Shown: piece after piece, positions 3,219-33,717 of the stretch
Position numbering within the stretch: the first letter of the stretch is position 1
Layout of the letters: each line of letters begins with the position of its first letter
Assembly: GCA_022842645.1 (NCBI GenBank)
Contig: JALHPE010000001.1
Span: 135,711 to 199,710 of the forward strand
DNA: 64,000 nt
Reading direction: 5' to 3'
DNA from: Minisyncoccota bacterium
GTDB taxonomy: Bacteria; Patescibacteriota; Minisyncoccia; Phycocordibacterales; UBA2100
Made by a program: the position numbers and the translations under genes
Notes under the pieces: model-generated
Seen by the model: the letters and a program-made list of their open reading frames with translations, nothing else
Database searches by the model: none
Told to the model about the DNA's origin: nothing

Positions 3219-3312
3219 GTCATGCGGAGCATAGCCGAAAAATGCTCAGAATTCAATCTTGTTCTGGGAGCTTACACTTCACGAGGCGCAGCTTCTCGAC
3301 TAGAATGCAAAC

Positions 3313-8487: not shown

Positions 8488-8490
8488 ATA

Positions 8491-8566
8491 TGGAGCCGCC
8501 TCCCGGGATTGAACCGGGCACCTACCCATTACGAATGGGTCGCTCTACCAACTGAGCTAAGGCGGC
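8491..8566 (-). tRNA. tRNA-Thr(CGU)
   Basis: Minus strand: GCCGCCU-UA-GCUC-AGUUGGU-AGAGC-G-ACCCA-UUCGUAA-UGGGU-AGGUG-CCCGG-UUCAAUC-CCGGG-AGGCGGC-U-CCA. Anticodon CGU. Encoded CCA. Confidence 0.85.
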
Positions 8567-9912: not shown

Positions 9913-10293
9913 GAACTCTTTAGACATCTTGCCCACCGCGCGAGTGAGCGACTTGGTTCCCCTTGGGCATTTGCGTTCGCCCTCGGCATCATTGTCCTGT
10001 GGGCGCTCGCAGGCCCCTTCCTTGGATTCTCCACAACGTGGCAGCTTCTCATCAATACTGCGACAACTGTTCTCACCTTTCTCATGGTGTTTCTCATCCA
10101 AAACACTCAAAACCGCGATACGCGCGCGGTACATCTCAAGCTCGACGAACTTATCCGCGCCGTAAAAGCCGCGCGCAATAATCTCATCGATCTCGAGGAA
10201 CTCTCAGACGCGGAGCTTGATGAGTTTGAAGACGAGTTTCGTCGCATCCGCGCCCATAAAACCACACGTCCGCGCACTAAGGTTACCGAGTGA
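9907..10293 (+). CDS. small membrane protein of the low-affinity iron permease (Fet4-like, PF04120-type) family
   Basis: GSPWAFAFALGIIVLWALAGPFLGFSTTWQLLINTATTVLTFLMVFLIQNTQNRDTRAVHLKLDELIRA matches the remembered conserved core of bacterial Fet4-like proteins. Start at ATG 9907. Confidence 0.5.
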   Translation: MHELFRHLAHRASERLGSPWAFAFALGIIVLWALAGPFLGFSTTWQLLINTATTVLTFLMVFLIQNTQNRDTRAVHLKLDELIRAVKAARNNLIDLEELSDAELDEFEDEFRRIRAHKTTRPRTKVTE

Positions 10294-10795
10294 GCTCTTC
10301 GATGCGTGCACGCACCTCATCCATTTGGATGGGCCCCCGTTGGTGGAAAATAATTTCACTATTTGAATCAATAAAGACTGTTTCGGGCATAGCATATCCT
10401 CCGATTGATCGGAAGAACGCATCGTCGGGGTCAAGTAGTATCTCAACACCTGAGAGGCCCAGGGGATCGGTAAATGCACGCGCCTCTTCAAGAGACTCGG
10501 CGCGATTCACTGCAAGAATAGTGATTTTGTCACCAAATTCGTTCTTGAGCTCGTGAAGGTTCTTCAGCTCTTCGGCGCAATAGGGACACCAAGAAGCCCA
10601 CGTGTGCGCAACGATAATTGATCGCTTGAATTCTGAAAGCGGCACTTCTTTTCCATCATATGAGCGCAGCGTGAGATTATATTCTTCACGGAATGTCTCT
10701 GAGCCAGGTGTGGGGCGGGTAAAGAAATAATACCCCACTGCACCAACCACAATGATGCTTGCCAGACCAACGCCAATAAATAGTTGTTTTTGCAT
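10283..10795 (-). CDS. TlpA/ResA-like membrane-anchored thiol:disulfide oxidoreductase (thioredoxin fold)
   Basis: N-terminal TM helix. WASWCPYCAEEL CxxC active site. Thioredoxin-like length. Confidence 0.8.
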   Translation of the reverse strand: MQKQLFIGVGLASIIVVGAVGYYFFTRPTPGSETFREEYNLTLRSYDGKEVPLSEFKRSIIVAHTWASWCPYCAEELKNLHELKNEFGDKITILAVNRAESLEEARAFTDPLGLSGVEILLDPDDAFFRSIGGYAMPETVFIDSNSEIIFHQRGPIQMDEVRARIEELTR

Positions 10796-10796
10796 A

Positions 10797-12458
10797 CTAA
10801 CCAGTCCAATTAAAGAGGAGGATACTAAAATCAGCAAGGTTCACCGTGCCGTCGGCGTTGAAATCACTCTCTGCATCAGAGGTAAGCCACGCAGAGAGCA
10901 TGATGGAGAAATCGGTGAGATTGACCTTACCATCGCCATTTATATCCGTGGATCCTGTCGTTGAAGGTGCCCTCTCTCCTAAGCCAAGAATGAGTGGTGG
11001 ACTAAGGGGGCTTACTTTGTCTTCAACTTCTCCACGCGCTTGAATGACATAGCTTCCGTCTGAAATGCGCGATCCCGGCACCGTCTCACGCCACTGACCG
11101 TCGGTAGTCGAGGCATTTGTTGCACTCACCTGACTAAGGAGTGAACCAATTTTCCGCCACACAATCACGCGCACCGTACTCCCAGGTATACTCTCGCCTG
11201 TGAGCGATAGATCTTTCCCAAGCTGAGGCTCAGTAATTGCTCCCAGTGTTGGCGAGAGAAGAATGTCAGAAACGCGGTTGTTCGTACCACTTTCAAGCGT
11301 GAGCGTTGTGGTATAGGAAGCGGTCGTGCGGCCACCCGAATCGCGCGCATACGCTGCAAAAGTATATACACCACGCTCAAGGCGATCGATCGTCGTTTCG
11401 AATAACCCATCTGAGCTAGCCTGCGCCGTCCTCGCAACCACACCGTCTTTCAGAATGGTTACCGTACTTCCCGAAGGTGCCCACCCCGAAAGTTCGAATC
11501 CTGCGAGGTAGAGCACACTACTTCCATCAGGAAAAGGACCGACACCACCGTTCCCAGTCGAGCCTGACTCCGATGCAATGGAAGTATTACTCACCGGAGT
11601 TGGTGCAAGTGTAAACGTAATTGCATAGTCATCGGTGTTTACATTAAGACTCGTATCGACACAGCGCACATAGTAATTGTAGGTGGTGCTGTTCACGTGC
11701 CCCGAAACGGTCGTGAAAAATAATGTACCCGCGTTAGCCGAAGAAAATACTCCGGGCATCGATGCATACGCAACTCCTGTTGTGGTTGCATACCGACACG
11801 TGGCTGCTTCATTGGTCTCGAGCGAAAGTTGGATCACGCTATTCCCCGCTGAAATTGTTCCTGAGGGAAGTCCATTCACCCGCGTCGGCGGTTGCGGCGC
11901 TTGCTGCACCGTCACGGCAACCGGCTGAACAATTGCAATCATGGCAGCTCCGTTATCAAGCACCCCGCTACCACCCTCCGTTGCAAGCGAGACGCGGTAT
12001 GAGCCAATACCTGCAGGGTTCACTGGAAACCGATTCCCTAGTGCGCCATACGACGCATTGCCGAGCGTTATGCGCACCCTATCCCCCGCAGCAAGTCCTG
12101 TGGTCGAATTCAATACAATAATGACGGTTCCTCCTGAAAGCGAAATACCATCGGTGCTCGTGCCTGCGCTCGCAGAGAGTTCGCGCTGAGTGAACGGCCC
12201 ACCAGAAGAAACCTCAACATCGACGTCAGTGTAATCAAAGCCTGATTGTAATGTGAACGCACCACCCTCCGGCACAATACGCACAACACCAGAAGGCGGT
12301 ATGGGGGAAGTTAGGGTAAACGTAACTATGTGTGTCGAAGTTGCGCTCGGTGCAGAAGTCGAAACAAGATCGCTCACCACAAGTAACGCACCCGCACGCG
12401 TTGTGCTAAGTGCGATACCAAAAATGATGACACAGAAGACTGCGAACAGTGCCCGCAT
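10797..12458 (-). CDS. secreted multi-Ig/Fn3-like surface protein with C-terminal dockerin-like module
   Basis: Signal peptide MRALFAVFCVIIFGIALSTTRA. C-terminus DINGDGKVNLTDFSIMLSAWL...DFNADGTVNLADFSILLFNW is a duplicated Ca-binding dockerin-type repeat (DxNxDGxVNxxD). Confidence 0.65.
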   Translation of the reverse strand: MRALFAVFCVIIFGIALSTTRAGALLVVSDLVSTSAPSATSTHIVTFTLTSPIPPSGVVRIVPEGGAFTLQSGFDYTDVDVEVSSGGPFTQRELSASAGTSTDGISLSGGTVIIVLNSTTGLAAGDRVRITLGNASYGALGNRFPVNPAGIGSYRVSLATEGGSGVLDNGAAMIAIVQPVAVTVQQAPQPPTRVNGLPSGTISAGNSVIQLSLETNEAATCRYATTTGVAYASMPGVFSSANAGTLFFTTVSGHVNSTTYNYYVRCVDTSLNVNTDDYAITFTLAPTPVSNTSIASESGSTGNGGVGPFPDGSSVLYLAGFELSGWAPSGSTVTILKDGVVARTAQASSDGLFETTIDRLERGVYTFAAYARDSGGRTTASYTTTLTLESGTNNRVSDILLSPTLGAITEPQLGKDLSLTGESIPGSTVRVIVWRKIGSLLSQVSATNASTTDGQWRETVPGSRISDGSYVIQARGEVEDKVSPLSPPLILGLGERAPSTTGSTDINGDGKVNLTDFSIMLSAWLTSDAESDFNADGTVNLADFSILLFNWTG

Positions 12459-12484: not shown

Positions 12485-12892
12485 CTACGACTGCTTGAGA
12501 TTCACGATTCCACCTCGCGGAACCCGCTTCCCCCGTCGATAGTCAAAAAAGAAGTTGAGGCCGACAAGGATGGAGAGAATGATACTGGCAATAAAACTGG
12601 CTAAGGGGAGCAAATCTCGTTCGCGAAGCGAAAGAGCTTCTTCACGTTCAAGGACACGCTCTTCACGTACCTCAAGTAGAGTTTCTTTTTGTGCGAGCTG
12701 TGTCGCAATCGTGTTTTCGGGCGTGACCGGAACCGATGCCGAAGCACCTACCACGTTTGCAACCATCTGAATGCCACCCTGCGCGACAGCACCAGGTACA
12801 CCATGAAGTGCCGAGTATGAAAGCAGAAGCACTGCAATAGCTGCAGGCGCATGCACACTCCATGTGCGCCGTTTGTGGTGATGTGTTTTCAT
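12485..12892 (-). CDS. hypothetical membrane-anchored coiled-coil protein
   Basis: Hydrophobic N-region, charged coiled-coil (LLEVREERVLEREEALSLRERDLL), C-terminal TM. Confidence 0.3.
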   Translation of the reverse strand: MKTHHHKRRTWSVHAPAAIAVLLLSYSALHGVPGAVAQGGIQMVANVVGASASVPVTPENTIATQLAQKETLLEVREERVLEREEALSLRERDLLPLASFIASIILSILVGLNFFFDYRRGKRVPRGGIVNLKQS

Positions 12893-12899: not shown

Positions 12900-13949
12900 T
12901 CACGCAAACAGGAAGAAGAGAAGTCCGAAAGAGACGACGGCAAAGAGAAATACACCTGCGACAATGGCCATCATCCGAAGCGCGGATCGCTCATAACGTC
13001 TTCCCATGTAGTCCTTATTACCCGATCCCCCCATCTCACGTAATTTTTTTCTGATGTACGAACGAACAAAAAGGAAAAGGAGGAGCGCAGCAGCAAAGAG
13101 TGAGCCTAGAACAGTGAGGATGAGCGTCGCAGGAAGTACCCAAAATGTTGTAACCCCCGAGATACTCTTCCTACTATCCTCGCCATAGGCAAGACTTAAG
13201 ACTGCTTGGTACCTGCCAAATGCAAATGAGTCATGGTCCCAGGTGGGGCGATAGATGCGCTCTGTTTCTGGGAATATGGCTCCGCCGGAGTCATTGACCC
13301 GTACGACCGCAACTTGATTGCCACGCATATTCGTAATCTCGATTGTGCCTCGTGGACGCACTAAAACATTACTCAGGTTCTCAACACGCACGGTAAAGTC
13401 GACATTGGGCGTACTATACACACTACTACCACTCGAGAACTCGCGCAGTCGCGCCTCCTCAACAATATCTCCTGAAATACGTAGACTGATCACACTGCCT
13501 ACCTGAATACCGATAGCTGCCCCGGTTTCTCCTGGACTTGGTGGCGTTGCGGCAAAAAATACACCTCCGAAGTGTGATCCCGGCGTTGCCTCCAAGGGAA
13601 TGCGCACCGTAAACGCAACGGATTTTGATTCACCAACAGCAAGTGCGACTGAAGTAGTCTCCGGCTGGATCCACTGACTAATCTCATACCCTGTTGCTTG
13701 TCCCTCAGCCGCAAAAACAGGAAGCCCTTCGTCATCAACACCAAGAATATCTTCAATAAGAACGTAGTAGGTACGATCTTCTGATGCAAGGTTTTTAACC
13801 GTAAGCGTGAAGCGATAGGTATCCCCAGGATTCACCCGGTCTTCAACAATACCCGGCTTGATCTCAACGCCCTGAGTTTGGGCAAGCGCAAAAGGCGCCG
13901 CACCGAGGAGAAGCACTATGGCGAGGAGGGATGTGATGATGTCTTTCAT
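12900..13949 (-). CDS. CscA-like cell-surface protein (signal peptide + DUF916-like + DUF3324-like beta-sandwich domains + C-terminal TM anchor and basic tail), paralog 1
   Basis: Signal peptide. Domain-1 end motif PGSHFGGVFF. Domain-2 motif RPRGTIEITNMRGNQV...GRYQAVLSLAYG...TTFWVLP. TM LILTVLGSLFAAALLLFLFV followed by RSYIRKKLR. Confidence 0.55.
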   Translation of the reverse strand: MKDIITSLLAIVLLLGAAPFALAQTQGVEIKPGIVEDRVNPGDTYRFTLTVKNLASEDRTYYVLIEDILGVDDEGLPVFAAEGQATGYEISQWIQPETTSVALAVGESKSVAFTVRIPLEATPGSHFGGVFFAATPPSPGETGAAIGIQVGSVISLRISGDIVEEARLREFSSGSSVYSTPNVDFTVRVENLSNVLVRPRGTIEITNMRGNQVAVVRVNDSGGAIFPETERIYRPTWDHDSFAFGRYQAVLSLAYGEDSRKSISGVTTFWVLPATLILTVLGSLFAAALLLFLFVRSYIRKKLREMGGSGNKDYMGRRYERSALRMMAIVAGVFLFAVVSFGLLFFLFA

Positions 13950-14012
13950 GGTCTCTTCCCCTATGGGGCGAGTGTAGCATGCCGCTGCACCCTACCCCAG
14001 CCCACCCCTCGG

Positions 14013-15176
14013 CTAGAAGACGGGGGTTGCAACGTACGTGAGTGTATTCGTGTAATCCGTACCTGCTTCCTGAAGCGAGGTGATCGCTATCCTGAAGCCA
14101 ATGTCAGTCGTACCTATATTTGCCGTTGTACCATCCGATGGGCCGTTGTGATGGAAGACCGCGCGAGAGGTTGTCGCAAAGTTACCCACAAAGAGCGCCG
14201 TACCAAACTCATCAGTGTTGAGATCATCCTCTGATGTGATACCAAAGTGACCATACGTATTCTCGGAACCAAGTGTTCCTGCAGGATACGACCACGGGCC
14301 AGGAGTGGAGTTACCATTACCATTTGCAAACGGATCAATGTCGGCACCTGTCGCGGAAGTGAGGTTTTGATCTTGTCTGATGGTGACTGTGAAGCCGTTT
14401 GCGGCGTTGGTCGCAACGGTGAGACGCTGCCCCGCCGTGGTGGATGCGTTCACGGTTGGATCAAGAAAACCAAACGCGATAGCGGTTGCAGATGTGGTAG
14501 TGGATGTTGTGATTCCATTTACATCAGTACCATTCGGAAGACCAGCAATGGTAAAGGTGAAGCTTGTGGCAACAGCTGCGGTTACCACTACATCGTCAAT
14601 GATAGCAACACGCGTATCTGCCTGATCGAGAACGGAAGATGCCGAACCTTGGTTACGGCTCTCTACACGAACCACATATGACTGAGCAGAGCTTGGGTTC
14701 ACAATGTTACTTGTTGTTGCAATTGGCAAACTGATCGCGGTTGAGGTAGCAATAACGTCGTTTGCGCAGATAGTGAGCGTGAAGGCCTCAGTGGTAGTGG
14801 AGAGCGTAAACTCGCCGGGGCCGGCGGTACAGGTTGCGACGACTGAAAGACCGGACTCTGAAACAAAGTCAGCTGCTTCAAGATTGTTGATCTGGAAGTT
14901 GTCCCCCGTTGGATCGAAGTCCACAAAGATAGTATCAGCACCACCAAGATCATTAAGCGCCGTTTGAACCGTGAAGTTGATCGTGTGGCCTGAGCGAACA
15001 CCCAAATCAGAATCCGTGAGTGTGTCGCTCACGTTCGTAAAGCTTGCCGCGTTTGCATTTTTGAGAGAAAGCGGAAAGCCGGTCGCCCACACTAAAGCGG
15101 CGATCGCGAGGATCGAAAGGAGTTTGCGAGCAAGTGTGTTGTCGAGCGAGAGAGCAAATACGTGCTTGTTATTCAT
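14013..15176 (-). CDS. secreted T/S/N-rich surface protein with C-terminal WxL-like motif (Tyr in place of Trp)
   Basis: Signal peptide. Low-complexity T/S-rich body. C-terminus ...QEAGTDYTNTLTYVATPVF resembles the second WxL motif (YxGxLTWxLxxxP). Adjacent to CscA-like paralogs. Confidence 0.5.
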   Translation of the reverse strand: MNNKHVFALSLDNTLARKLLSILAIAALVWATGFPLSLKNANAASFTNVSDTLTDSDLGVRSGHTINFTVQTALNDLGGADTIFVDFDPTGDNFQINNLEAADFVSESGLSVVATCTAGPGEFTLSTTTEAFTLTICANDVIATSTAISLPIATTSNIVNPSSAQSYVVRVESRNQGSASSVLDQADTRVAIIDDVVVTAAVATSFTFTIAGLPNGTDVNGITTSTTTSATAIAFGFLDPTVNASTTAGQRLTVATNAANGFTVTIRQDQNLTSATGADIDPFANGNGNSTPGPWSYPAGTLGSENTYGHFGITSEDDLNTDEFGTALFVGNFATTSRAVFHHNGPSDGTTANIGTTDIGFRIAITSLQEAGTDYTNTLTYVATPVF

Positions 15177-15367
15177 AAGGTGGTTTCCGGCGCAAGTAAT
15201 GACATGTGCTAATGAGTTTATTAAGCAACACGCGTCCGATGCAGGGTCACCGTGCACGTCTTCTTACCTGGGTCATTGTAAACGACAAATATTGGACAAG
15301 TCATGAGAATTACGGCGCAATTGTGGATAACTCCCCTTGCGATACTACTGTCCTTTTCAAAAGGACG

Positions 15368-16618
15368 TTACTGGACGACCCCTTCTTGTTCTGAAGCGGT
15401 TTCTCGTACCTCAAACGATCGATTAGGATCGAGGGATTTTTGAAGATATGAAATACCCGACACAGCTCCCACAATAAGGAGTGCAAGAAACAGGAAAAAA
15501 AGCTTATATTTCGTCATAAATCCGGTAACCGTGACTGGTGAGGTGGATATACTGACGGGAAGAGATGGTTCTGACCGCACAACGCGACGTAAATCAACGA
15601 CGCCCTCGCGAAGCGGCTCTGCAAGCGAAGCAAGAGAAGGTGTGGACTCTTCCGTCCCCGCACTCACCCCTCGTCGTTCTCGCTCGAGAGTAAGCGCGCG
15701 ACGGATATACCGGCGAATAAACCACACCAAGGCAAGGATAAAGAGGAGTAACGAACCAAGCAGCGTGGCCACCGGCACGACCGGAACTACCCAGAAGTAG
15801 GTGGTAGCTGAAACGCTCTGTTTTTCACCATCGCCAAACGAAAGTGTTGCAACAGCACTGTACCGGCCGATGTCAAAGAGTTCAGCATCTCCCTTCCACG
15901 AGAACTCGAACTTGCGAATACTCTGCGGTAACACATTTCCAAACGAACTGGATTCGTTGATTGGGAGTACACCCCGCTCTTTCCCCCACATGTTGTAGAT
16001 TGTGATGAGCCCGCGTGGAATAAGATGTGTGTTGCCGGTATTTTCGAAACGGAGAAGGAACGAGGCCTCGTTTGTTTGATAGAGCTCGCGTTCAGTCCGA
16101 AACTCGCGAATACGTCCCCGCTCTAGTACCTCTCCTTCAATGCGAACAAAAAGAAGAGAGGAGACGAGTGTTGAAACCGCAACTGAAGTGCCGCTTGTGT
16201 TTACTTCAGGCGGCTGGGTACCAATAAGAATTGCGGCATAGTGTCCGCCGGGCGACGCCCCTTCTGGAATGTTCACCGTAAAGGGGATGTCGGCGCTCGA
16301 GCCGGGCGGTACGGTGATAGGTTCGCTCGGAATGCTCACCCATGAGGCGAGTCCGATACTCGCCCCACCCACAATTGGAGTTAGCGATGCGGCCCCACCC
16401 TCACCATCCGCAGAAAAGTCCATCAGCTGCGCGTAATAGGTTACGTCGTACGGATTCGTGTTCACAACCTTCAAAGAACTCGCCCACGATTCTCCGCGAC
16501 CAATGGTGAGCTGTATCAAGGGCGGCGTTACCGTAACCGAAAGTGCACCTTGTGTTTGTGCGCCCGAACCAAGTGGTAAAAGAAGCGCTAGAAGGACGAT
16601 GAGGGCTCTCATCTTCAT
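15368..16618 (-). CDS. CscA-like cell-surface protein (DUF916/DUF3324-like architecture), paralog 2
   Basis: Signal peptide MKMRALIVLLALLLPLGSGA. PGGHYAAILI. IPRGLITIYNMWGKE...GRYSAVATLSFG...TYFWVVP. C-terminal TM + RRYIRR basic tail. Long cytoplasmic/charged extension. Confidence 0.55.
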   Translation of the reverse strand: MKMRALIVLLALLLPLGSGAQTQGALSVTVTPPLIQLTIGRGESWASSLKVVNTNPYDVTYYAQLMDFSADGEGGAASLTPIVGGASIGLASWVSIPSEPITVPPGSSADIPFTVNIPEGASPGGHYAAILIGTQPPEVNTSGTSVAVSTLVSSLLFVRIEGEVLERGRIREFRTERELYQTNEASFLLRFENTGNTHLIPRGLITIYNMWGKERGVLPINESSSFGNVLPQSIRKFEFSWKGDAELFDIGRYSAVATLSFGDGEKQSVSATTYFWVVPVVPVATLLGSLLLFILALVWFIRRYIRRALTLERERRGVSAGTEESTPSLASLAEPLREGVVDLRRVVRSEPSLPVSISTSPVTVTGFMTKYKLFFLFLALLIVGAVSGISYLQKSLDPNRSFEVRETASEQEGVVQ

Positions 16619-17775
16619 GCGCGGCGCTTGAGATTAATGACCTGGCCCTCAGTCGCAACCCTCGATTGAGTGGGTGCTTTTTTTGAGAGATCGACCGTGT
16701 GAGACACAGCTTGTGGCGTAGCACGCGTGATGATTGGCGGTCGTTCTTGCACAGGTGAAGGATCAACTGGCGGGACTAGCGGCACAGGAGTCGGTACAGG
16801 AGTGGAGGGAGCTGCAGGGGCACTTGGCACCACCTCCGCAAGCGGCAATCCATGCGCAAGCGCAAATTTCTTGTGGTGCCGCACTTCCAGCCAGCGATGC
16901 GAATAAAGGGCAAGAACAATGATTGCGATAAGACTCACAATAATGAGCCCCAAGAGCTGTTGCCACGGAATAATCCAGAAAAAAACCGTATCCTGAACAG
17001 AAGCCGTCTGACTCGAGCCGTAATCAACATTCAAGTACGCCTTATAGCGACCAAAGCCGCTTGCGGCACTCCAGACCGATGCAAGCTGACTCACCTGACT
17101 CGGCGAGACCTCCTTACCATCTGCATTCACTTCAACAGACGCAACTTCGGTACCCTTGCGATCATAAATACGAATCTCACCTTTGGGTTTCAGTTCTTGG
17201 TTACCAATATTTTCAAGTTGGTAGTTGAAGAGCACATCATCGCCTGAGAAAAAAAGTGAATCCGTCTTGAATGCCTTGAGTTGCATGAACTCTTTAATAT
17301 CTTCTTGAACTTCGAGATTGACCGCAACAACCGCAAGCGGCGTTGAGTTTTCGGCAGACGCACGATCGCCGCCGTCGCCAAAAGAGATTGATGCGTGATA
17401 GGTGCCTGGCACTGCGTTCGCGGTGATACGCACCACAAATGGAAGCGTTTTCTCTTCACCCGGGTTCAATTCCACGACACCACGCGAGAGCTCGATCCAA
17501 TTCGCTAATGAATCTGCTCGGTCATCGGCATTTTGTGCTGAGACAAATTCCTCTTCCCCCTCCCGCGCATCCACATCATTCACACTGGGAAACAGATTGA
17601 GTTTACGCTCGGTCGTGTTGCGCACCGTGATCGAGCGCTTCAGAATGTCGCGCGCTTTTGCTTTGTCATCGATGACTACCGGGGTGACTTCAAGCTCCGC
17701 AGCGAATGCCGGTTGCGCAACCACGAGAAGTGCGAAGAGAACCACCGAGAACCGAAGCATAGATGTGAATAGCAT
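16615..17775 (-). CDS. CscA-like cell-surface protein, paralog 3, with Pro-rich C-terminal tail
   Basis: Signal peptide. PGTYHASISF. KPKGEIRIYDRKGTE...GRYKAYLNVDYG...VFFWIIP. TM. Pro-rich tail PAAPSTPVPTPVPLVPPVDPSPV. Confidence 0.55.
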   Translation of the reverse strand: MLFTSMLRFSVVLFALLVVAQPAFAAELEVTPVVIDDKAKARDILKRSITVRNTTERKLNLFPSVNDVDAREGEEEFVSAQNADDRADSLANWIELSRGVVELNPGEEKTLPFVVRITANAVPGTYHASISFGDGGDRASAENSTPLAVVAVNLEVQEDIKEFMQLKAFKTDSLFFSGDDVLFNYQLENIGNQELKPKGEIRIYDRKGTEVASVEVNADGKEVSPSQVSQLASVWSAASGFGRYKAYLNVDYGSSQTASVQDTVFFWIIPWQQLLGLIIVSLIAIIVLALYSHRWLEVRHHKKFALAHGLPLAEVVPSAPAAPSTPVPTPVPLVPPVDPSPVQERPPIITRATPQAVSHTVDLSKKAPTQSRVATEGQVINLKRRA

Positions 17776-17781
17776 ACCAGA

Positions 17782-19089
17782 TTAAAAAACGGGTACGACG
17801 ATAAAGACGATGTTCCCTTCATATGCGCCCGCCTCCTGTAGATTGCGCGCCTCAACTTTGTACACAATGTCAGTGCGTTTGTCGGTCGCGGGCCCTGCGT
17901 TATAGGCGATTTCTTTCGGGGTGTTCGTGAAGGCAGCATACGTATCGTTTGCAGCAAAACGCGTTGAGCCTCCGCCGAGCACATCTTCGCCAGCGTGGTA
18001 GCCGAAACATCCAGCGGCACCTCCACCGCATGCACTCGTCCACCCTGCCGGACTTTCATTTGTTGCGGCAACCGGATCAATTTCTGCACTTGGACTGAGG
18101 AGTCCTTGTCTTTGAAGTGCAAAAATCTTGTACCCTTGGCTCGCATTGGTGGAAACAGAAAGACGGTGCGCCGCTTCAACGGGAGTGCTCAGAAGGAGTG
18201 CCCCAAACGGCACGCCGGTTGCGGTTGTTTCAACATCAGTCGATATGCCCTCAGTTGATGTTGCCGCTGGCAAGCCATCGATTGAGAACGAGAGTTCAGC
18301 GCCACCAGTAGTGAGACTCGGATATGCTCCCGCAGAAACAAACGGTACCGTTGAACTACTTGCCACGTCAAAAAGTCGAAAGAAATACACAGTATTTCCA
18401 TTCGCACCCGATTCTTCAATCGTAAATTCATATTCAACGGTTGAACTTGCTGTGTGCGTTTCGGAACTCGTTGTGGTGCCAGACTCGTTGTGCGTACCAC
18501 ATCCATCACCCACACTTGCGACACAGGCATCGGCGTCTGAGATGAGTGCGCTTGGGATACGCGCCCCGTCGACGCCTCCCCCGCTTGCGTAACACCAGCT
18601 AGAAACACCCGTACAATCACCCGTTTCTGCGACGAATGTACCACCCGAAGAAAATGATGAAGAGGTTGCAAATTGGAGACGGAACTTTGCACCAGCGAGT
18701 CCGATGCCTGCCTGATCAACAACGGTGATGCGTAATTTAACGACACCCGTCACATTGGTTGGCGCTACACTCTCTCCTGCGAGCGGCGTCAGTGGCGTTA
18801 CATTTTCCGCGTCATCGTACCAGCGCCAGAGAGACGACTGCGGAACAAAGGTCTCAAAGAAAAGATATCCGGCGTTTAGAAGAAAATTGGTGCTCGTGGC
18901 TTCGGTCGTTGCAATGTCATTTCCACTTTGCAGTGTTTCAAAACTCGTGGATGTGCCCGTGCCCCCAAAATCATTTGCGGAAGGCGTACGGATCATAAAA
19001 TTATTGCTCGAGTAATCATCGGCAAACACAGGAGCCGCAAGCGCCAGAAGAAGCGCAATCGCGAGTCCTTGTTTAACCCTCAGTGTCAT
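17782..19089 (-). CDS. secreted T/S/G-rich surface protein with C-terminal WxL-like motif
   Basis: Signal peptide MTLRVKQGLAIALLLALAAPVFA. C-terminus ...QEAGAYEGNIVFIVVPVF parallels the 414-aa protein's terminus. Confidence 0.5.
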   Translation of the reverse strand: MTLRVKQGLAIALLLALAAPVFADDYSSNNFMIRTPSANDFGGTGTSTSFETLQSGNDIATTEATSTNFLLNAGYLFFETFVPQSSLWRWYDDAENVTPLTPLAGESVAPTNVTGVVKLRITVVDQAGIGLAGAKFRLQFATSSSFSSGGTFVAETGDCTGVSSWCYASGGGVDGARIPSALISDADACVASVGDGCGTHNESGTTTSSETHTASSTVEYEFTIEESGANGNTVYFFRLFDVASSSTVPFVSAGAYPSLTTGGAELSFSIDGLPAATSTEGISTDVETTATGVPFGALLLSTPVEAAHRLSVSTNASQGYKIFALQRQGLLSPSAEIDPVAATNESPAGWTSACGGGAAGCFGYHAGEDVLGGGSTRFAANDTYAAFTNTPKEIAYNAGPATDKRTDIVYKVEARNLQEAGAYEGNIVFIVVPVF

Positions 19090-19091: not shown

Positions 19092-19532
19092 TTACTGCGC
19101 AATCGGCGCAACCTCAAGGAGTCTATCGATGTTCGGGTCATAGAGATACGCCTTGCGTGCCTGTGCATAGATCAAGACGACGTCGCCCACTTTCGCGTTA
19201 GCAAAAAATGTTTGCTCGGCGAGTTTGGACGGATCAGAAACTGTCGCGATTGTTGGCTCTTCTCCCTCCGGGAGCACGATAAGCTTCCCCACACGCTCAA
19301 CTATTGAAAGCTCCTTTTCTGGCGTTTCTTCTCTCACTGCCGGGGCTTCTGATGCTGAGTCGTTTCGTACAACATACCAATAGATTGAAGCGCCGAGGAC
19401 AAGAAACACACAGACGCTAATGACTAATGTCGGATTACGCTTTCTCCGACGACGCGGAGGTGGTGGCATAGGCGGCATTGCCGGAGGTGCGGGTTCATTT
19501 TTTAAACTTACAATCAGTGGATCTCGTGCCAT
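19092..19532 (-). CDS. hypothetical Pro-rich, membrane-anchored protein (weak SAF/CpaB-like flavour)
   Basis: PAMPPMPPPPRRRRKR followed by a TM helix. C-terminal VGDVVLIYAQ region. Confidence 0.35.
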   Translation of the reverse strand: MARDPLIVSLKNEPAPPAMPPMPPPPRRRRKRNPTLVISVCVFLVLGASIYWYVVRNDSASEAPAVREETPEKELSIVERVGKLIVLPEGEEPTIATVSDPSKLAEQTFFANAKVGDVVLIYAQARKAYLYDPNIDRLLEVAPIAQ

Positions 19533-19551: not shown

Positions 19552-22500
19552 CTATTCGGTGGGCGGGCTCGCCTCAGGAACTTCTGATTCGGGAGTTGGC
19601 GGTATATCTGCTGAAGGAGATGCTGAGACGGATGGAGCCTCGGGAGTTTCACTCGACGCTTCTCCACCTATCGGTGGATTCTCTCCCGCAGATGGTGGGG
19701 GAACAATCTCTTCAATGGGGCCGGTCATATCTTCTTCGCTCAGCGTCTCATACTCAGGAACATCCGTAATTTCCAAGAGCGAACGAACATCTTCTTTGGT
19801 AAGACACTGATCATCAATACAGATCTCATTCTTCGCTTTAACGGTGTCAACAAAGATCGCACCAATGCCGTTTGTTGCACTCGCAAACCACTCGGCAATA
19901 TGCGTCAGAATGGAGGCAATAAATGATTGTTCCCCTGTGCGCGGAGTTGTGCTTGCGGTCGAGGTTGCGATGGATGTTGCAACTCCGTCGGTTGAGGATG
20001 CGGAAGATGTGGCAAATTCAGTCGAAGCGATTCCAAACGCATTTTGAAGACGCACAGAGATTGCGTGCATGACACCATCAACGAAATCAAATTGCTCGGT
20101 ACTCGTCGCGATCACGCGTAAGCCCTCCATGTCGCCGAGAAGCGCGAGTCCCAAAGCATCAATCTCAATACCGCGCTGCAGATCAACAAAGAGCATCACT
20201 GTTGCTTCCTCCTGCGTGCCGTCGTATGCCGAAAGTGCGATACCCACAGTATCATCAAAGACATTTGCTTTGCGCCCGACACCCGCTTCAGACGAGAGTG
20301 CGATACGATCCCCCACTTCGATTACACCTCCTTCAAGATTTACTTTTGTCGGAATTCTTCCGGCGAGCGCAACAGGACGCTGACCAACTTGATCTTTTTC
20401 TCCGAGCACAATTCCTGGAGCTGTGGCGACAATGCCAACAAGTGGTCGCTTCACTTCTTCCAAAGCGCGCGTGACTACAAGTGGAGAAGATGTATCAAAC
20501 GCCACAATGTCTCCTGGTCCGATAGATGGATCGGTGACTGGATAATTCTCTGCAAGGTCGGCACCACTCGTAACTGTGGTGTACTCATAGATAACGACAC
20601 AACCGACGCCGCCCACAGTGCCTGTCCCATTACTCCCACCACCACCACCACCACACGCCCCCGCGGCCCCAGCAGCACCTGCCCCTACACCACCAGCACC
20701 ACCCACACCACCACGCGGAGCATCGCCTCCGGCGCCTCCAATACCAATTGCGGTGTCGCCATAACCACCTGAATCTCCGTTCATATTGAGATCCCCTCCA
20801 GAACCAATGCCCCCGGCACCCCCCGCTCCGTCAGCACCGTTTGCACGCACACCTCCGCCGCCACCAGTAGATGTTGCAGACCCGGCGAACGCTGATGTGC
20901 CGCCAGCACCACCGCTTGCAGAGGCGGTAACTGTGCCAGCTGCACCAATTTGAATGAATGGCGTTGTGGTGCCAGCAAGTTCGCTCACGGTAAATTGCTC
21001 CATCGCATAGCCACCAGATCCGCCACCGCCAGTACCATCGCCAGTACCATCGCCATCGCCACCGCCACCGCCACCGCCCCAAACCTCAACAACAATGTAC
21101 GACATGCCGTTTGGCTTCGTATACGCCTGACTTGTAGTAAATGTATTCACTGCAGTGAGTTTTACGACGGTGTCGGTGATACACGCTCCATTCACTGAAA
21201 AACATCCGCCTGTAATATTGATGCCATTTGCAAATGTTGAAGTGCCAGTTGTGATATTGAGCGCACGCCCTTCGATGCCACCCGCAAACGTTGACGTTGC
21301 ATTTGTTTCCCCACGAATCGTGGTGGTCGCTGTGCGTCCCACCGCAACAAAATCATTTGCCGAAAGTGCAGTTGTAGAAGCGCCTCCCCCAAATCGCTGC
21401 AAACCACTCCAGATGTTTGCATTCGCAAGATTTAACCCAAGCGTTGCGCTTGCAAGTTGCAGCGACGAGCCGACGGTAGTGGTCGCAAGTGCACCGGTGC
21501 CATTTCCAGTAAGAAGCGTGCCTGATTGGATATTCCCCCACCCCGTGCCGCCCCGAGAAACTCCGAGCATGCCGAGCCAATTCATCGCAAAGGTGTGCGC
21601 ATTACCAGCGGATGTGATGGTAATCCCAATGTTTGCATCACTTGATGAAGCAAATGTTTGCGTCGCCCCTGTTTGAGGTTGCCCCGGAGCGCCAAGCGAT
21701 GAAATGCCAGAGCCAGAGGCACCCGCATCGACTCCGCATGAAAATTGCCCCGTGAGGGAATTCCACAAAAGCTTATCCCCCGAAGTATCACATCCAAGAA
21801 GTCCTGCGCCGCGAAAGGCGTTGGTAAAGAGAAGTGACGACGTTGCATTTCGTGACGTGAAGTCCTGGAACGTCGAAGATGCAGTTACTAAAAGATTTGT
21901 TGTTGTTGCAGCAGAGAGTGTGGTATTGCCTGTCACATTCAACGCCCCTGCGACTACAACATTCCCTGCCGTATCAATGGTTGTTGTCGCCGTTTCTCCA
22001 AAATATGCGCGCCCTGCTGACAAAGCACTCGACGACGCAAGGGCAAAATTCTGACGCGCTGTCCAAGTGTTTGCGTTTCCCGTGTTGAGAGCGAGTGTGC
22101 CCCCGGAGAGTTGGAGCGATGAGCCGATGGTAGTGGTAGCAAGTGCTCCTGTTCCGTTTCCAGTAAGAAGCGTGCCTGATTGGATATTCCCCCACCCCGT
22201 GCCGCCATTTGCTACTTGTAGAATACCGTTCACATCGCTTGCGAGGTCAACAAGTGTCGCACTAATGGCTCCTGCCGTTGCACGAAGAATACCCGTAAGA
22301 TTGCCCACCGAAAGCGAGCCGAAAAATCCTTGTGTCGAAGACGCGTACGATGCAGAGATGTTTGTTGTAGAGGCGTTGCCGAATGTTTGGAGTGCAGTGA
22401 AGGTGTTGGCAGTGTAGGTCTTCGGAATGGTTGTTGATGATGAGACAAAGAAGTTGGCGCTGGTGGTGGAGAAGAAGTTGCGCTGCGTTTGCCAGTAGTC

Positions 22501-25500
22501 GTTGGAGGTGGTGGAGAACGCTAAGCCGAGGGATGCGAAGTTTGTTGCTGATGTGGTGGAGAAGCTGTTCGCGAGATAGAAACTTCCTTCTTGACCATCG
22601 AAGGTGCCGGACCAGTTGCCGGTCACGTCGAGATATGAAGCAGCGAGGGATGTGGTCGCATACACACGACCTGTTGCGTCAGTTGCAAGGAGTGCGGAAG
22701 GAAGATTGGTAATACCGAGGTTTGAGGTGGTGGCGCTCGTGAAGCGCGCATTTGTTGCAAAGAGATTCGTTGAGGTAGCGTTCGTTGAGGTGGAGAAGGT
22801 CGAGGAGAGTGCGGTGATGGAAGATGATGCGTTTGCGATGAGGCCGCCGTTGAATGAAAGGAGTGTGTTTGTTGCGTTTCCTGGGAAGAGGTAGCCGAAG
22901 GTTGCGTAGTCAGTGCCTGCGACTGCGAGTGAGACATTCCCCTGTCCATCAACGCGCAGGAGTCCGTTCTGAAGACCAGAGACGACGAGGTTTGTTGTGG
23001 AAGCGTAGGTGGTGGAGAAGAGTGTTGAGGAGGCGTTGCCGAAGGTTTGGAGTGCAGTGAAGGTGTTGGCAGTGTAGGTCTTCGGAATCGTTGTTGATGA
23101 TGAGACAAAGAAGTTGGCACTGGTTGTGGAGAAGAAGTTGCGCTGCGTTTGCCAGAAGTCGTTGGAGGTGGTGGAGAACGCAAGACCGAGAGATGAGAAA
23201 TGGAGTGCAGATGTGGTTGAAAAGATTCCCTGGATACCGAGCGTCGAGGTTCCCATGAGGGTATACGCACCGAGTCCGTCGCCGACGAGTAATTGCCCGT
23301 ATGTCGGCACAGTTGTAGTGCCAGTGCCGCCGCTCGTCACGCCGAGCTCACCAGTAAAAGGACCATATTCATAGACAACGACCGTGCCCGTGCCACCGGC
23401 ACCTCCCGTTGCACCGGTATCCACGTCTTCACAAGACGCGCCGCCGCCGCCGGCACCATACGCACCTGCCGTTGCTCCAGCTGTACATACGTTTCCACCG
23501 TCTTGTCCACCACGACCGCCGCCGCCCCAGTAACTGCTACCACCAAGACCTCCAAAGACGACTTCAGCGAGACAATCGCCAATATGTCCGTCGCCACCGC
23601 TCACATTAAGATCACCGGAGCTTGCGCTACCGCCGGTGCCTGCTGTACCCCAAGAACCAGCCGCACACGCTGCATTCACGGCAGAGCCGCCGCCGCCAAC
23701 ACCACCATTTGCAATTGCAAACGTACTAAAACGCGATTGCCCACCGGTGCCACCGGTTCCTCCCGTGTTTGATCCGGCAGTTCCCGCAGAACCCACTGAA
23801 ATTTGCACCGACGTTGTTGCGACAACGTCGACGACAACGATAGAGGATGCGCCCGCGCCACCGCCGCCACCAACTGTTTCGTTCGCGACGTCTGCAGCCG
23901 GAGCATCGGCACCGCCACCGCCACCGCCACCGCCGGTCACGACCACGTGCGCAATCGTGGCCCCTGGTGAGGGTGTATATGTTGTGACCCCGGGAGTCGT
24001 AAACGTTCGGATAGCAACCAAAACACCACTTCCTTCTCCCCCTCCCCCGCCCGCACCCAAACACACACCATTTACTGCGACGCAGCCCTGTCCTATATTG
24101 ATACCATTCGCAAACGTAGAAGTTGCCGACACCGATGTGACGTTCAATACCGAAGCTTGCAGTCCTCCTGCAAACGTTGATGTACCCGCACCAAGTACCG
24201 CGAGCAGCCCCGTCGTCGTCGCGCCTCCACTAATCGTGAGTCCTCCTGCTTGCGTACCCGAGCCAATGGTTGAGGATGCGTAGATGCCAAGACCAGTTGT
24301 GGTGGCATTGTTTGGGAAGAGGTATGCAAATGTTGGAAGTCCGAGTGAGGAAGTGGCAGTGAGTGTGTAGCCACCGGATGCGTTCCCGACAAGCATCTGA
24401 CCGAAGGTTGGCGCTGCGGTGAGTCCGGTGCCGCCGTAGAGGACACCGATGGACGTCGTCGCAGACACCACACCATTGCGTGCATCAAGTGGACCATTCA
24501 GTCCGGTGAGTGTGAGTGCGTTTGAGGTGAGGCCACCCGTGAATGATTGTGCGGCAGTGAAAGTATTAGCCGTATACGTCTTCGGAATCGTTGAAGACGA
24601 GTGGACGAAGTGTTGTGCGGAAGTTGTGGAGAAGAAGTATCCCTTATCGAGAGCATTGAGGAAGGTTTGGACACGGGAGTCGGTGTAGTAGAGGTTGGCT
24701 CCTTCTGCGACGTGGGTGGTCAGGAGTCCCAGTGTGGATGTGGAGAGTTGTTGCCAGCCAGTCCCTGCGTAATTCCCTAGGAGAATACCTGCTGCGGAGA
24801 TGCTTGAAAGACCGGTGCCACCACGATTCGCTGCGAGAGTACCAGCGGTGTCAGCGAGTGCGATACCAAGTGTTGAAGTTGCAAAGTCAGTCCACGTGGA
24901 ACCGTTCCACGCAAAGAGGTCCCCATAGTTCTCCGTCATTGCCGCGACATCGTTTAACTCTTCAATGCTGTTGTTAGTGAGATCGTCTGCGGTGCGTGCG
25001 GTTTGCTGGGTTTCCCAGTAGTCGACAGAAGTCGTGCTGAAGAAATTATTCACAGATTTCCAGTAATCACTGGATGTTGTTGAGAATGTAAGACCAAGAG
25101 ACGTGAAATGTGCGGCACTTGTCGTTGAGAAGAAGTTGTTGACCGATTTCCAGTAGTCGTTTGAAGTCGTGCTGAATGCGAGGCCGAGTGATGAGAAGTA
25201 TGAGGCGCTTGAAGTTGAGAAGAAGTTTCTTTGTGTCTGCCAGTAATCTGCAGACGTTGTCGAGAAGCCTGAAAGATTTGCTTGGGATATGTAGTAATCA
25301 GTGGATGTTGTTGAGAAAAAGTTGTTCACACTTTTCCAGTAATCGTTAGAGGTAGTGGAGAACGCGAGACCTTGCGAAGAAAAGAACGAGGCGGACGTGG
25401 TGGAAAAGGTACCCGTGATGCCGAGCGACGATGTCGCGACAAGATCGTAGCCACCGATCGCATTACCCAAAAGAAGCTGACCATATGTCGGTGCTGTTGA

Positions 25501-33630: not shown

Positions 33631-33717
33631 TTTAGCACCTACTAACGCTATGTCTTGCCTCTGTACCCACGAACCGGGAGAGAGAGAAAAGTGACCCATG
33701 AACCCCAGGAAAACGCT

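What the first reader, a model, noticed from the sequence alone, without database searches (positions are those of the whole stretch)
12900..19089. Csc-like cell-surface complex locus: three CscA-like (DUF916+DUF3324-type) anchored proteins interleaved with two WxL-like secreted proteins
Five co-directional genes encode (i) three paralogs with signal peptide, two beta-sandwich domains, a C-terminal TM helix and basic stop-transfer tail (12900-13949, 15368-16618, 16615-17775), and (ii) two large T/S-rich secreted proteins (14013-15176, 17782-19089). The paralogs' conserved motifs are PGxHxGxIxF at the end of domain 1 and PRG-I-I-N..G....GRY-A-L..YG....FWVxP in domain 2. Their architecture matches CscA of Firmicute WxL loci. 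The secreted proteins end in QEAG-DYTNTLTYVATPVF and QEAG-AYEGNIVFIVVPVF, which resembles the C-terminal WxL motif with Tyr/Phe replacing Trp. A fourth CscA-like/WxL-like pair lies at 32653-35592, and the 6336-aa giant carries the same terminus. This arrangement suggests a non-covalent surface-display system analogous to the Lactobacillales Csc/WxL complexes, in what appears to be a non-Firmicute genome.
Basis: partly seen in the sequence, partly recalled or inferred. Interest (0 to 1): 0.7.

Follow-up and report, generated by a model that had tools for sequence, protein, structure and literature searches.

The report
Pam-type pilus operon with WxLIP-like chaperones
This gene cluster from an ultra-small (CPR/Patescibacteria) bacterium most likely builds a recently described "Pam" surface fibre, and its membrane-anchored helper proteins are true relatives of the CscA/WxLIP proteins of lactic acid bacteria, which links two systems so far described separately.

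Summary
The five genes are real and lie on the minus strand. The cassette order pilin–anchor–anchor–pilin–anchor recurs in related CPR genomes: both families were found in 33 of 37 loci.

The three anchored paralogs (g1, g3, g4) and a distant fourth (32653-33699) are homologues of CscA/WxLIP:
- 40 of 45 family members hit PF06030.
- hhalign against genuine WxLIPs gives 97.7% probability, E 1.5e-12, across both domains.
- The best PDB fold matches are E. faecium WxLIP (9i25/9i1y), followed by chaperone-usher chaperones.

The other half does not hold. The two T/S-rich proteins are not demonstrable WxL proteins: PF13731 gives no hit, and hhalign gives 0.5-3.7%, matching only the last hairpin. Their shared C-terminal domain instead matches NCBIfam NF058581, "Pam pilus pilin" (E 1e-10; 49 of 56 family members). 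Its nearest solved folds are donor-strand-exchange filament subunits.

p4b and the 6336-aa giant carry a different C-terminal domain.

Best reading: a divergent Parcubacteria-group member of the Pam pilus system (bioRxiv 2026), which has no usher and uses membrane-anchored chaperones. The added point is that these chaperones belong to the WxLIP superfamily. Filament formation is inferred, not shown.

The parts
17782..19089 (-). g5, pilin 1 (435 aa). Signal peptide; conserved mature N-terminus that is predicted disordered (res 24-77); beta-sandwich NTD (83-261, two conserved Cys pairs); linker strand; Pam-pilin C-terminal domain (263-435, one Cys pair) ending LQEAGAYEGNIVFIVVPVF.
17785..18303 (-). 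g5 C-terminal (Pam-pilin type) domain, including the near-invariant linker strand L-S-F-S-I-D-G-L at its start. This is the proposed strand-acceptor domain.
   Evidence: Family conservation. CTD profile built without window sequences hits g5 and g2 only.
18859..19020 (-). g5 residues 24-77: conserved S.NF / TSTSF / STNF motifs, pLDDT below 50 in the monomer model. An alternative donor-strand candidate.
   Evidence: The parallel is TLP-1, whose AF2-disordered N-terminus is the donor strand (PMC11494351).
16615..17775 (-). g4, anchored WxLIP/PapD-like paralog (386 aa). Signal peptide, two beta domains, one TM helix, ~90-aa Pro-rich cytoplasmic tail.
   Evidence: g1-orthologue profile E 9.4e-52. 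hhalign vs WxLIP E 1.8e-3, co-linear. TM scan.
15368..16618 (-). g3, anchored WxLIP/PapD-like paralog (416 aa). Two C-terminal TM segments separated by a ~60-aa basic loop. Overlaps g4 by 4 nt.
   Evidence: Profile E 3.6e-78. hhalign vs WxLIP 92.5%, E 5e-7. TM scan.
14013..15176 (-). g2, pilin 2 (387 aa). Signal peptide (ANA|A), conserved N-terminal motif LT.VSDTLSDSDLG..S.HTI.FT, an NTD unrelated to that of g5, and the same Pam-pilin CTD (res ~206-387; nt 14016-14561) ending LQEAGTDYTNTLTYVATPVF.
   Evidence: CTD profile E 7.5e-27, non-circular. BLASTP vs g5 E 4e-15. NTDs unrelated. Family conservation.
12900..13949 (-). g1, anchored WxLIP/PapD-like paralog (349 aa). Domain 1 (28-133), disordered loop (134-149), domain 2 (150-271), TM helical hairpin (274-348).
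   Evidence: AF2 pLDDT 87.6. Foldseek: WxLIP 9i25_C E 6.4e-13, then CfaA, CsuC, Caf1M, DraB and FimC chaperones, and RbmA. PF06030 25.1 bits. hhalign 95.4%.
13503..13550 (-). g1 residues 134-149: low-confidence loop leading into the long last strand of domain 1 (alternating hydrophobic residues I-G-I-Q-V-G-S-V-I-S-L-R-I). Proposed donor strand for complementing the pilin CTD.
   Evidence: pLDDT ~52. Aligned by hhalign to the WxLIP loop region, which in WxLIP orders into a strand that completes the WxL sandwich (PMC10599100). The role here is inferred.
19092..19532 (-). g6, 146-aa bitopic membrane protein (Pro/Arg-rich cytoplasmic N-terminus, TM 32-56), 2 nt upstream of g5. A similar small gene occupies the same position in relatives. 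Role unknown.
12485..12892 (-). g0, 135-aa small membrane protein with a coiled-coil segment, 7 nt downstream of g1. Syntenic in relatives. Role unknown.
10797..12458 (-). gm1, 553-aa secreted protein: g2-type pilin NTD (res 25-202, including the N-terminal motif), then Big_6/Big_13 Ig domains and a C-terminal dockerin. It lacks the linker-strand motif and the CTD. Candidate terminal or adaptor subunit.
   Evidence: g2-NTD profile E 3.1e-11 / 7e-14. Pfam Dockerin_1, Big_13, Big_6. Orthologues lie directly downstream of the cassette in at least 17 loci.
10283..10837 (-). Membrane-tethered redoxin/thioredoxin-fold protein, syntenic with the cassette. It may oxidise the conserved pilin cysteine pairs (inferred).
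   Evidence: Pfam Redoxin, AhpC-TSA. Synteny.
19552..27579 (-). 2675-aa secreted giant protein immediately upstream (19-nt gap), with no pilin CTD detected. In some relatives the first pilin position is taken by a 1200-2500-aa giant that ends in the pilin CTD.
32653..33699 (-). p4a, a distant fourth paralog of the anchored family (348 aa, one TM).
   Evidence: g1-orthologue profile E 3.6e-11. hhalign vs WxLIP only E 0.036.
33718..35592 (-). p4b, 624-aa secreted Cys/Thr-rich protein. Its C-terminal domain is shared with the 6336-aa giant (40788-59798) and is not the Pam-pilin CTD.
   Evidence: Same gene order downstream of a MacB/FtsX ABC pair in L017.

Best explanation
The locus is a divergent member of the Pam pilus system of CPR bacteria, from the Parcubacteria/Paceibacteria group (Kaiserbacteria-like). 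[quoted passage not shown]

Proposed mechanism:
1. g5 and g2 are exported by Sec and their signal peptides are cleaved.
2. Each has a different N-terminal beta-sandwich domain but the same ~170-aa C-terminal Ig-like domain. That domain is proposed to be incomplete and to need a strand from another protein.
3. The three membrane-anchored two-domain proteins g4, g3 and g1 have a PapD-like fold and belong to the WxLIP superfamily. They are proposed to supply that strand temporarily from the long loop and last strand of their domain 1, holding subunits at the outer face of the cytoplasmic membrane.
4. The chaperone strand is then exchanged for a strand from the next pilin. That strand is either the near-invariant linker L(S/T)F(S/T)I.GL or the conserved, disordered mature N-terminus. 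Repeating this makes a linear fibre that grows from the base without an outer-membrane usher.

The conserved flanking genes are proposed accessory parts: two small membrane proteins, a dockerin-bearing protein with a pilin-type NTD, a membrane redoxin, and an upstream giant protein. Possible roles are anchoring or termination, disulfide formation, and an adhesive tip.

Shown here: homology of the pilin CTD to the Pam-pilin family; homology of the anchored proteins to WxLIP and their PapD-like fold; conserved operon order.

Inferred: the strand-complementation steps, polymerisation, and all accessory roles.
For: Pilins:
- NF058581 'Pam pilus system pilin subunit' covers its whole model in g5 (E 1.6e-9 and 1.3e-10). 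49 of 56 family members match it, best 8.4e-11, and 11 match PamT.
- g2 shares the domain (E 7.5e-27).
- The architecture matches PamA/B as published: signal peptide, beta-sandwich NTD, linker strand, CTD, paired cysteines, with the linker and CTD the most conserved parts.

Chaperones:
- The g1 model is confident (pLDDT 87.6).
- Foldseek gives WxLIP bound to long WxL (E 6.4e-13), then CfaA, CsuC, Caf1M, DraB and FimC chaperones (E 1e-9 to 1e-7).
- A C-terminal TM anchor is present, as described for PamC/PamD.
- In WxLIP the equivalent disordered loop becomes a strand that completes the partner's sandwich.

Operon:
- Genes are tightly spaced or overlapping.
- The order pilin-anchor-anchor-pilin-anchor is kept across Kaiser-, Adler-, Jorgensen- and Berkelbacteria and other Paceibacterota; 33 of 37 loci carry both families.
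Against: - All NF058581 scores lie below NCBI's 55-bit cutoff, so this is a distant subfamily.
- I could not obtain PamA-D sequences or structures for a direct comparison. The pilin profile has no PDB sequence hit, and no Pam chain appeared among the listed fold matches.
- No PamT-like (CTD-only) or PamR-like terminator was recognised in the window, and no NCBIfam Pam chaperone model hit g1, g3 or g4.
- No multimer model or experiment shows strand exchange or a filament.
- In several relatives the CTD ends 1200-2500-aa proteins, which looks more like surface display of adhesins than like a repeating pilin.
- The closest solved relative of the 'chaperones' (WxLIP) is currently interpreted as a stable anchor, not a transient chaperone.
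- The ATP-synthase neighbourhood reported for pam operons was not found among the window genes I annotated.
Confidence: 0.68

Rival explanations
1. A WxL/Csc-like static surface-display complex, essentially the first reader's reading. In this view the anchored WxLIP-like proteins are permanent membrane anchors. Each holds one secreted protein (g5, g2, or in other genomes a giant adhesin) at the cell surface by inserting a strand into its C-terminal domain, and no polymer forms.
For: - The nearest sequence and structure relative of g1 is WxLIP, solved bound to a long WxL protein.
- The cluster logic is the same: an anchored two-domain protein plus short and very long partners that share one C-terminal domain.
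- The terminal hairpin motif resembles the distal WxL motif.
- The roughly one-to-one interleaving of anchors and partners, and the elaborate TM and cytoplasmic tails of the anchors, fit permanent partners.
Against: - The partner domain is not a demonstrable WxL domain.
- It does match the Pam-pilin model, whose founding members form filaments seen by cryo-EM.
- Both pilins carry strongly conserved extra strand-like segments (the linker and the N-terminus) that a static complex would not need.
- CPR cells lack the thick peptidoglycan platform that WxL is proposed to bind (background knowledge; not tested here).
Confidence: 0.22
2. Unrelated Ig-like envelope or adhesin proteins (DUF11/CARDB/fn3-type) that merely sit next to each other. 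On this view the similarities to WxLIP, PapD and Pam reflect the generic beta-sandwich fold and T/S-rich composition.
For: - g1 passes the DUF11 threshold (28.3 bits).
- Weak fn3_5, FixG_C and CARDB hits occur.
- Foldseek on full-length g5 gives generic tandem-Ig hits.
- Many two-domain PapD-like proteins, such as CEP192 and ciliary proteins, also score.
Against: - Profile-profile homology to WxLIP runs over 217 co-linear columns at E 1.5e-12, while the cross-controls score E 0.2-0.7.
- PF06030 is by far the most frequent family hit (40 of 45 members, against 2 for DUF11).
- NF058581 is matched end to end.
- Gene order is strictly conserved across candidate phyla.
Confidence: 0.05

Closest known systems
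Pam pilus system of Candidatus Mycosynbacter amalyticus (PamA/PamB/PamE pilins, PamC/PamD membrane-anchored chaperones, PamT tip, PamR terminator; Troman et al., bioRxiv 10.64898/2026.03.03.709456; NCBIfam NF058579, NF058581)
   Same: - It occurs in CPR bacteria.
- Pilins are Sec-exported with a beta-sandwich NTD, a linker strand and a ~150-170-aa C-terminal Ig-like domain homologous to NF058581.
- Pilins carry paired cysteines.
- Helper proteins have a PapD-like fold and a C-terminal TM helix.
- Pilin and helper genes are interleaved in one operon.
- There is no usher.
   Different: - Scores fall below the NCBIfam cutoff, so this is a distant subfamily.
- The lineage is the Parcubacteria/Paceibacteria group, not Saccharimonadia or Microgenomatia.
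- There are three helper paralogs, two of them with two C-terminal TM segments.
- g5 has an extra conserved, disordered ~55-aa N-terminal segment.
- No PamT or PamR was recognised.
- Conserved extras are a dockerin-bearing protein with a pilin-type NTD, a membrane redoxin and an upstream giant protein.
- ATP-synthase genes were not found among the window genes annotated.
WxL / Csc cell-surface clusters of Lactobacillales and Bacillales (CscA = WxLIP: DUF916/PF06030 + DUF3324/PF11797 + TM; CscB/CscC = WxL proteins, PF13731; CscD = small LPXTG protein; Siezen 2006, PMC1534035; Hassan 2023, PMC10599100; PDB 9i1y, 9i25)
   Same: - The anchored proteins are true homologues of WxLIP over the whole ectodomain and share its architecture: signal peptide, two Ig-like domains, TM, basic tail.
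- Clusters combine them with short and very long partners that share one C-terminal domain.
- In WxLIP a disordered loop of domain 1 inserts as a strand into the partner.
- The partners' last hairpin has a similar sequence pattern (A-x-x-Y-x-x-T-L-T-aromatic-x-hydrophobic).
   Different: - The partner domain is not detectably a WxL domain: there are no W-x-L motifs, no PF13731 hit, and hhalign gives at most 3.7%.
- PF11797 is not hit.
- There is no LPXTG protein.
- The organism is a CPR bacterium, not a Firmicute.
- The partners match a filament-forming pilin family.
Chaperone-usher pili of Gram-negative bacteria (PapD/FimC, CfaA, CsuC, Caf1M chaperones; Pap/Fim/Csu/CFA pilins)
   Same: - The fold of the helper proteins is the same (Foldseek E 1e-9 to 1e-7, TM-score about 0.5 when normalised by chaperone length).
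- The proposed mechanism is the same: donor-strand complementation followed by exchange.
   Different: - There is no detectable sequence similarity.
- There is no usher and no outer membrane.
- The helpers are membrane-anchored rather than soluble.
- The pilins have two domains.
TLP-1a/b environmental fibrils (PDB 9ikj/9ikk; CryoSeek, PMC11494351)
- It assembles by donor-strand exchange.
- Its donor is an N-terminal segment that AlphaFold predicts as disordered, as for g5 residues 24-77.
   Different: - It is a single-domain protomer whose closest sequence relative is a Flavobacteriales protein.
- The donor comes from protomer n+4, forming a tubule.
- No chaperone genes are known for it.

Membership tests
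Pam pilus system (CPR) | Pilin with a C-terminal Pam-pilin domain (NCBIfam NF058581) | tested here: met
   g5 scores E 1.6e-9 / 1.3e-10 over model positions 3-148 of 148. 49 of 56 family members match. g2 shares the domain (E 7.5e-27). Caveat: all scores (about 38-41 bits) lie below the curated 55-bit cutoff, so homology is significant but automatic naming would fail.
Pam pilus system (CPR) | Two-domain pilin: signal peptide, beta-sandwich NTD, single linker strand, open Ig-like CTD; paired cysteines | tested here: met
   The AF2 model has an NTD at 83-261, a linker strand at 266-272 and a CTD extending to 435. There are three conserved Cys pairs. Whether the CTD is 'open' cannot be judged from a monomer model.
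Pam pilus system (CPR) | PapD/FimC-like chaperones carrying a C-terminal TM helix, encoded in the same operon | tested here: met
   The g1 model hits CfaA, CsuC, Caf1M, DraB and FimC. TM helices are present. The genes are interleaved with the pilin genes. Direct comparison with PamC/PamD sequences was not possible.
Pam pilus system (CPR) | Tip pilin PamT (CTD only) and RbmA-like membrane terminator PamR | tested here: inconclusive
   No CTD-only ORF is present in the window. NF058579 PamT is only weakly hit by the g5 CTD. RbmA is a fold hit of g1 (E 1e-9), so one paralog could play the PamR role. CTD-only proteins of ~180-250 aa exist in other Patescibacteria.
Pam pilus system (CPR) | Assembly into extracellular helical filaments by donor-strand exchange | not testable with these tools
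   This needs multimer prediction or cryo-EM.
WxL/Csc cluster | WxLIP/CscA domain 1 = DUF916 (PF06030) | tested here: met
   40 of 45 family members match, best E 8.7e-10. g1 scores 25.1 bits against a 27.3-bit cutoff. hhalign on domain 1 alone gives 97.2%, E 2.9e-11. PDB sequence hit EfmWxLIP1, E 2.9e-5.
WxL/Csc cluster | WxLIP/CscA domain 2 = DUF3324 (PF11797) | tested here: inconclusive
   PF11797 is hit by none of 45 members. hhalign on domain 2 alone gives E 0.019. The full-length alignment and the Foldseek match (265 columns) do run co-linearly through domain 2, including the G-x-Y strand.
WxL/Csc cluster | Partner proteins carry a WxL domain (PF13731) with two W-x-L motifs | tested here: not met
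WxL/Csc cluster | Small LPXTG-anchored protein (CscD) in the cluster | tested here: not met
   No LPXTG-type C-terminus occurs in any real window ORF.
WxL/Csc cluster | Cluster of at least one WxLIP and at least two partner proteins sharing one C-terminal domain | tested here: met
   There are three WxLIP-like genes and two partners within 6.2 kb, and the arrangement is conserved. This holds in form only, because the partner domain differs.
Classical chaperone-usher pathway | Outer-membrane usher (PF00577) and a soluble periplasmic chaperone | tested here: not met
   No usher-like Pfam hit occurs among the operon or neighbouring genes. All the helpers are membrane-anchored.

The most novel reading that the evidence does not exclude
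CPR Pam pili and the WxL/Csc clusters of lactic acid bacteria may be two branches of one ancient assembly system of bacteria without an outer membrane. It would have no usher and a membrane-anchored chaperone of the WxLIP/DUF916 superfamily with a PapD-like fold. That chaperone would complete and hand over an incomplete C-terminal Ig-like domain on short or giant secreted proteins. If so, one of two things follows. Either WxL clusters, whose function has been unclear since 2006, assemble by chaperone-mediated strand complementation and possibly polymerise. Or the Pam 'chaperones' double as permanent anchors. The terminal 'AG.Y..TLT(Y/W).(A/L)..P' hairpin would then be a shared relic of the acceptor domain. 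Neither the Pam preprint nor the WxLIP literature that I could search makes this connection.
Probability: 0.35. Interest if true: 0.7.

Novelty: new member of a known kind. Interest (0 to 1): 0.5.

Why it matters
CPR/Patescibacteria bacteria are mostly uncultured epibionts, and how they touch and hold host cells is a central open question. Pam pili were described only in 2026, mainly in Saccharimonadia and Microgenomatia. This locus shows a divergent but strictly conserved five-gene version in the Parcubacteria group (Kaiser-, Adler-, Jorgensen- and Berkelbacteria and others). It falls below current annotation cutoffs, so its proteins appear as 'hypothetical protein' or unnamed in the source records seen here.

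The helper proteins are demonstrably homologous to WxLIP/CscA. That supplies a solved structural template (9i25) for the chaperone-subunit complex. It also suggests a testable evolutionary and mechanistic link between CPR pili and the poorly understood WxL adhesion clusters of Enterococcus, Listeria and Lactobacillus.

Tried and rejected
- Pfam on g2, g5, p4a and p4b gave no hits.
- PDB sequence searches with g5, g2 and the pilin-family profile gave nothing, or only noise (PsaK).
- The idea that p4b and the giant proteins share the g2/g5 terminus was rejected by profile search. They share a different domain with each other; giant1 shares neither.
- The idea that the g2 and g5 NTDs are related came from a first, circular result, because A3 contains g2. 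It disappeared once g2 was removed.
- I could not obtain M. amalyticus PamA-D. The preprint's supplement has no sequences, the CTD-profile protein search reached only unnamed Patescibacteria proteins, and the genome scan returned Parcubacteria-group loci. 'Ca. Saccharibacteria' titles on TPA assemblies look like placeholders, since one such locus is 90% identical to the window.
- Promoter and terminator scans were at or below chance.
- TLP-1 is not from a CPR bacterium; its nearest sequence is from Flavobacteriales.
- The Nat Commun 2026 WxlA paper has nothing on pili or chaperones.
- The representative-library HMM search was not run, because an unannotated top-150 list could not answer the open questions.

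Full report
**What is there.** All genes of the finding lie on the minus strand. They form a tight operon: g4 and g3 overlap by 4 nt, other gaps are 2-63 nt, and one 191-nt gap precedes g2. In transcription order the genes are:
- a 2675-aa secreted giant (19552-27579)
- g6, a 146-aa bitopic membrane protein
- g5 (17782-19089, 435 aa)
- g4 (16615-17775, 386 aa)
- g3 (15368-16618, 416 aa)
- g2 (14013-15176, 387 aa)
- g1 (12900-13949, 349 aa)
- g0 (135 aa, membrane)
- gm1 (10797-12458, 553 aa)
- a membrane-tethered redoxin

Independent gene calls on identical public contigs agree, apart from slightly later starts for g3 and g4.

**The anchored paralogs.** A profile built only from g1 orthologues of other genomes hits g3 (E 3.6e-78), g4 (9.4e-52) and the distant p4a at 32653-33699 (3.6e-11). 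It hits nothing else among 489 window ORFs. The g1 model is confident (pLDDT 87.6). It shows two beta-sandwich domains (28-133 and 150-271) joined through a low-confidence loop (134-149), followed by a TM helical hairpin. g3 also has two TM segments. g4 has one TM and a Pro-rich tail.

**Are they CscA/WxLIP? Yes.**
- PF06030 is just below threshold in g1 (25.1 vs 27.3 bits), but 40 of 45 family members match it, best E 8.7e-10.
- The family profile's only significant PDB sequence hit is E. faecium WxLIP1 (E 2.9e-5).
- I fetched nine genuine WxLIPs and fourteen genuine WxL proteins from Enterococcus, Lactococcus and Lactobacillaceae plasmids. hhalign of the g1 family against these WxLIPs gives 97.7%, E 1.5e-12, over 217 co-linear columns spanning both domains. 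Cross-controls score E 0.2-0.7.
- Domain 2 on its own is marginal (E 0.019), and PF11797 is never hit.
- Foldseek ranks WxLIP bound to long WxL (9i25_C, E 6.4e-13) and free WxLIP (9i1y) first. The chaperone-usher chaperones CfaA, CsuC, Caf1M, DraB and FimC, and also RbmA, follow.

WxLIP and PapD-like chaperones therefore belong to one fold class, and these proteins sit closest to WxLIP.

**The secreted proteins.** g5 and g2 share a ~170-aa C-terminal domain (BLASTP E 4e-15; non-circular profile E 7.5e-27). Their N-terminal domains are unrelated. The C-terminal domain is not a demonstrable WxL domain:
- PF13731 gives no hit.
- The pilin profile gives no PDB sequence hit at E<=10.
- hhalign against genuine WxL domains gives 0.5%.
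- With a far more diverse profile built from the homologues, the only alignment is the last 22 columns (P 0.012, 3.7%).

The motif resemblance is real, but it does not establish homology.

The domain does match NCBIfam NF058581, 'Pam pilus system pilin subunit', end to end (E 1.6e-9 and 1.3e-10). 49 of 56 family members match it, and 11 also hit PamT. All scores lie below the curated cutoff.

**The known system.** Troman et al. (bioRxiv 10.64898/2026.03.03.709456) solved the PamA and PamB filaments of Ca. Mycosynbacter amalyticus. The pilins have two domains, and their C-terminal open Ig-like domain accepts the linker strand of the neighbouring subunit. The operon encodes PapD/FimC-like chaperones (PamC, PamD) that, unusually, carry a C-terminal TM helix. 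It also encodes a tip subunit, PamT, and an RbmA-like membrane terminator, PamR. The present locus reproduces the core of this system. The preprint does not mention WxL or DUF916. [quoted passage not shown] No paper I could search connects the two systems.

**Conservation.** A genome scan with the CTD profile returned 33 species-level loci from Kaiser-, Adler-, Jorgensen-, Yanofsky-, Sung- and Berkelbacteria and from Paceibacterota/Minisyncoccia.
- Counting four further loci, 33 of 37 carry both families.
- The order pilin-anchor-anchor-pilin-anchor is kept wherever the contig is long enough.
- Three of the four exceptions (L034, L042, L049) have little or no contig downstream of the match. 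The fourth, L046, has about 10 kb downstream and still no anchored-protein hit.
- In seven loci (L015, L039, L043-L047) the first pilin position is taken by a 1200-2500-aa giant ending in the same CTD.
- gm1 orthologues follow the cassette in at least 17 loci. gm1 has the g2-type NTD (E 7e-14), then Ig domains and a dockerin, but no linker motif and no CTD.
- Membrane-anchored cohesin proteins occur elsewhere in the window.

**Mechanism.** The best-supported reading is a Pam-type, usher-less donor-strand-exchange fibre.
1. The pilins are exported by Sec.
2. Their CTD is capped by a strand from the loop and last strand of domain 1 of a membrane-anchored WxLIP/PapD-like protein.
3. The cap is displaced by a strand from the next pilin.

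What is shown is the set of homologies, the folds and the conserved operon. What is inferred is strand complementation, polymerisation, which segment is the donor (the linker or the N-terminus), and the accessory roles. The main rival is a static WxL-like display complex. The closest solved relative and the giant CTD-bearing proteins favour it. The Pam-pilin match and the filament-type fold neighbours count against it.

**Verdict.** The exception is that p4b and the 6336-aa giant carry a different shared terminus. The locus is a new, divergent member of a system described in 2026. The added value is the WxLIP link.

Noticed in passing
window 1-3600 (recombinase 1585-3195 +; tRNA-Gln 3145-3218 -): A large serine recombinase (Resolvase + Recombinase + zinc-ribbon domains) ends on top of a tRNA-Gln gene. 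It lies in a stretch with clearly lower GC (0.43-0.47, against ~0.52 elsewhere). This is probably an integrated mobile element at tRNA-Gln.
   Followed up: partly
window 29606-30580 (-), 59847-61370 (-), 10797-12458 (-), 31506-32747 (-): There is a cohesin-dockerin set in a CPR genome: two cohesin-domain proteins with C-terminal TM helices, and two secreted dockerin-bearing proteins. One of the dockerin proteins (gm1) starts with a pilin-type N-terminal domain. This could be a way of tethering surface structures.
   Followed up: partly
window 33718-35592 (-) and 40788-59798 (-): The 624-aa protein and the 6336-aa giant share a ~200-aa C-terminal domain ending YWGIN(I/V)PS (36% identity, E 2e-27). 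It is distinct from the Pam-pilin domain and has no family hit. The 624-aa gene and the distant anchored paralog p4a lie directly downstream of a MacB/FtsX ABC transporter pair (35645-38205), and the same order is seen in locus L017.
   Followed up: partly
loci L015, L039, L043-L047: In several Patescibacteria genomes the Pam-pilin C-terminal domain terminates giant proteins of about 1200-2500 aa. In six of the seven loci two anchored paralogs follow; L046 has none. The same assembly or anchoring domain therefore appears to carry very large passengers.
   Followed up: no
window 12900-13949 and 15368-16618 (C-terminal ~80-140 codons): The g1 and g3 subfamilies have two C-terminal TM segments (TM, basic loop, TM; the g1 family ends ...LF..FA). 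g4 has one TM and a ~90-aa Pro-rich cytoplasmic tail. WxLIP and the published PamC/PamD have a single TM.
   Followed up: no
window 7606-8566 (-): The release-factor (PCRF/RF-1 domain) ORF as listed overlaps tRNA-Thr (8491-8566) by ~39 nt. Its true start is probably further downstream, or the gene has an unusual N-terminus.
   Followed up: no
window 10283-10837 (-): A membrane-tethered thioredoxin-fold redoxin overlaps the end of gm1 and is syntenic with the pilus cassette in relatives. It may form the conserved disulfides of the pilins.
   Followed up: no
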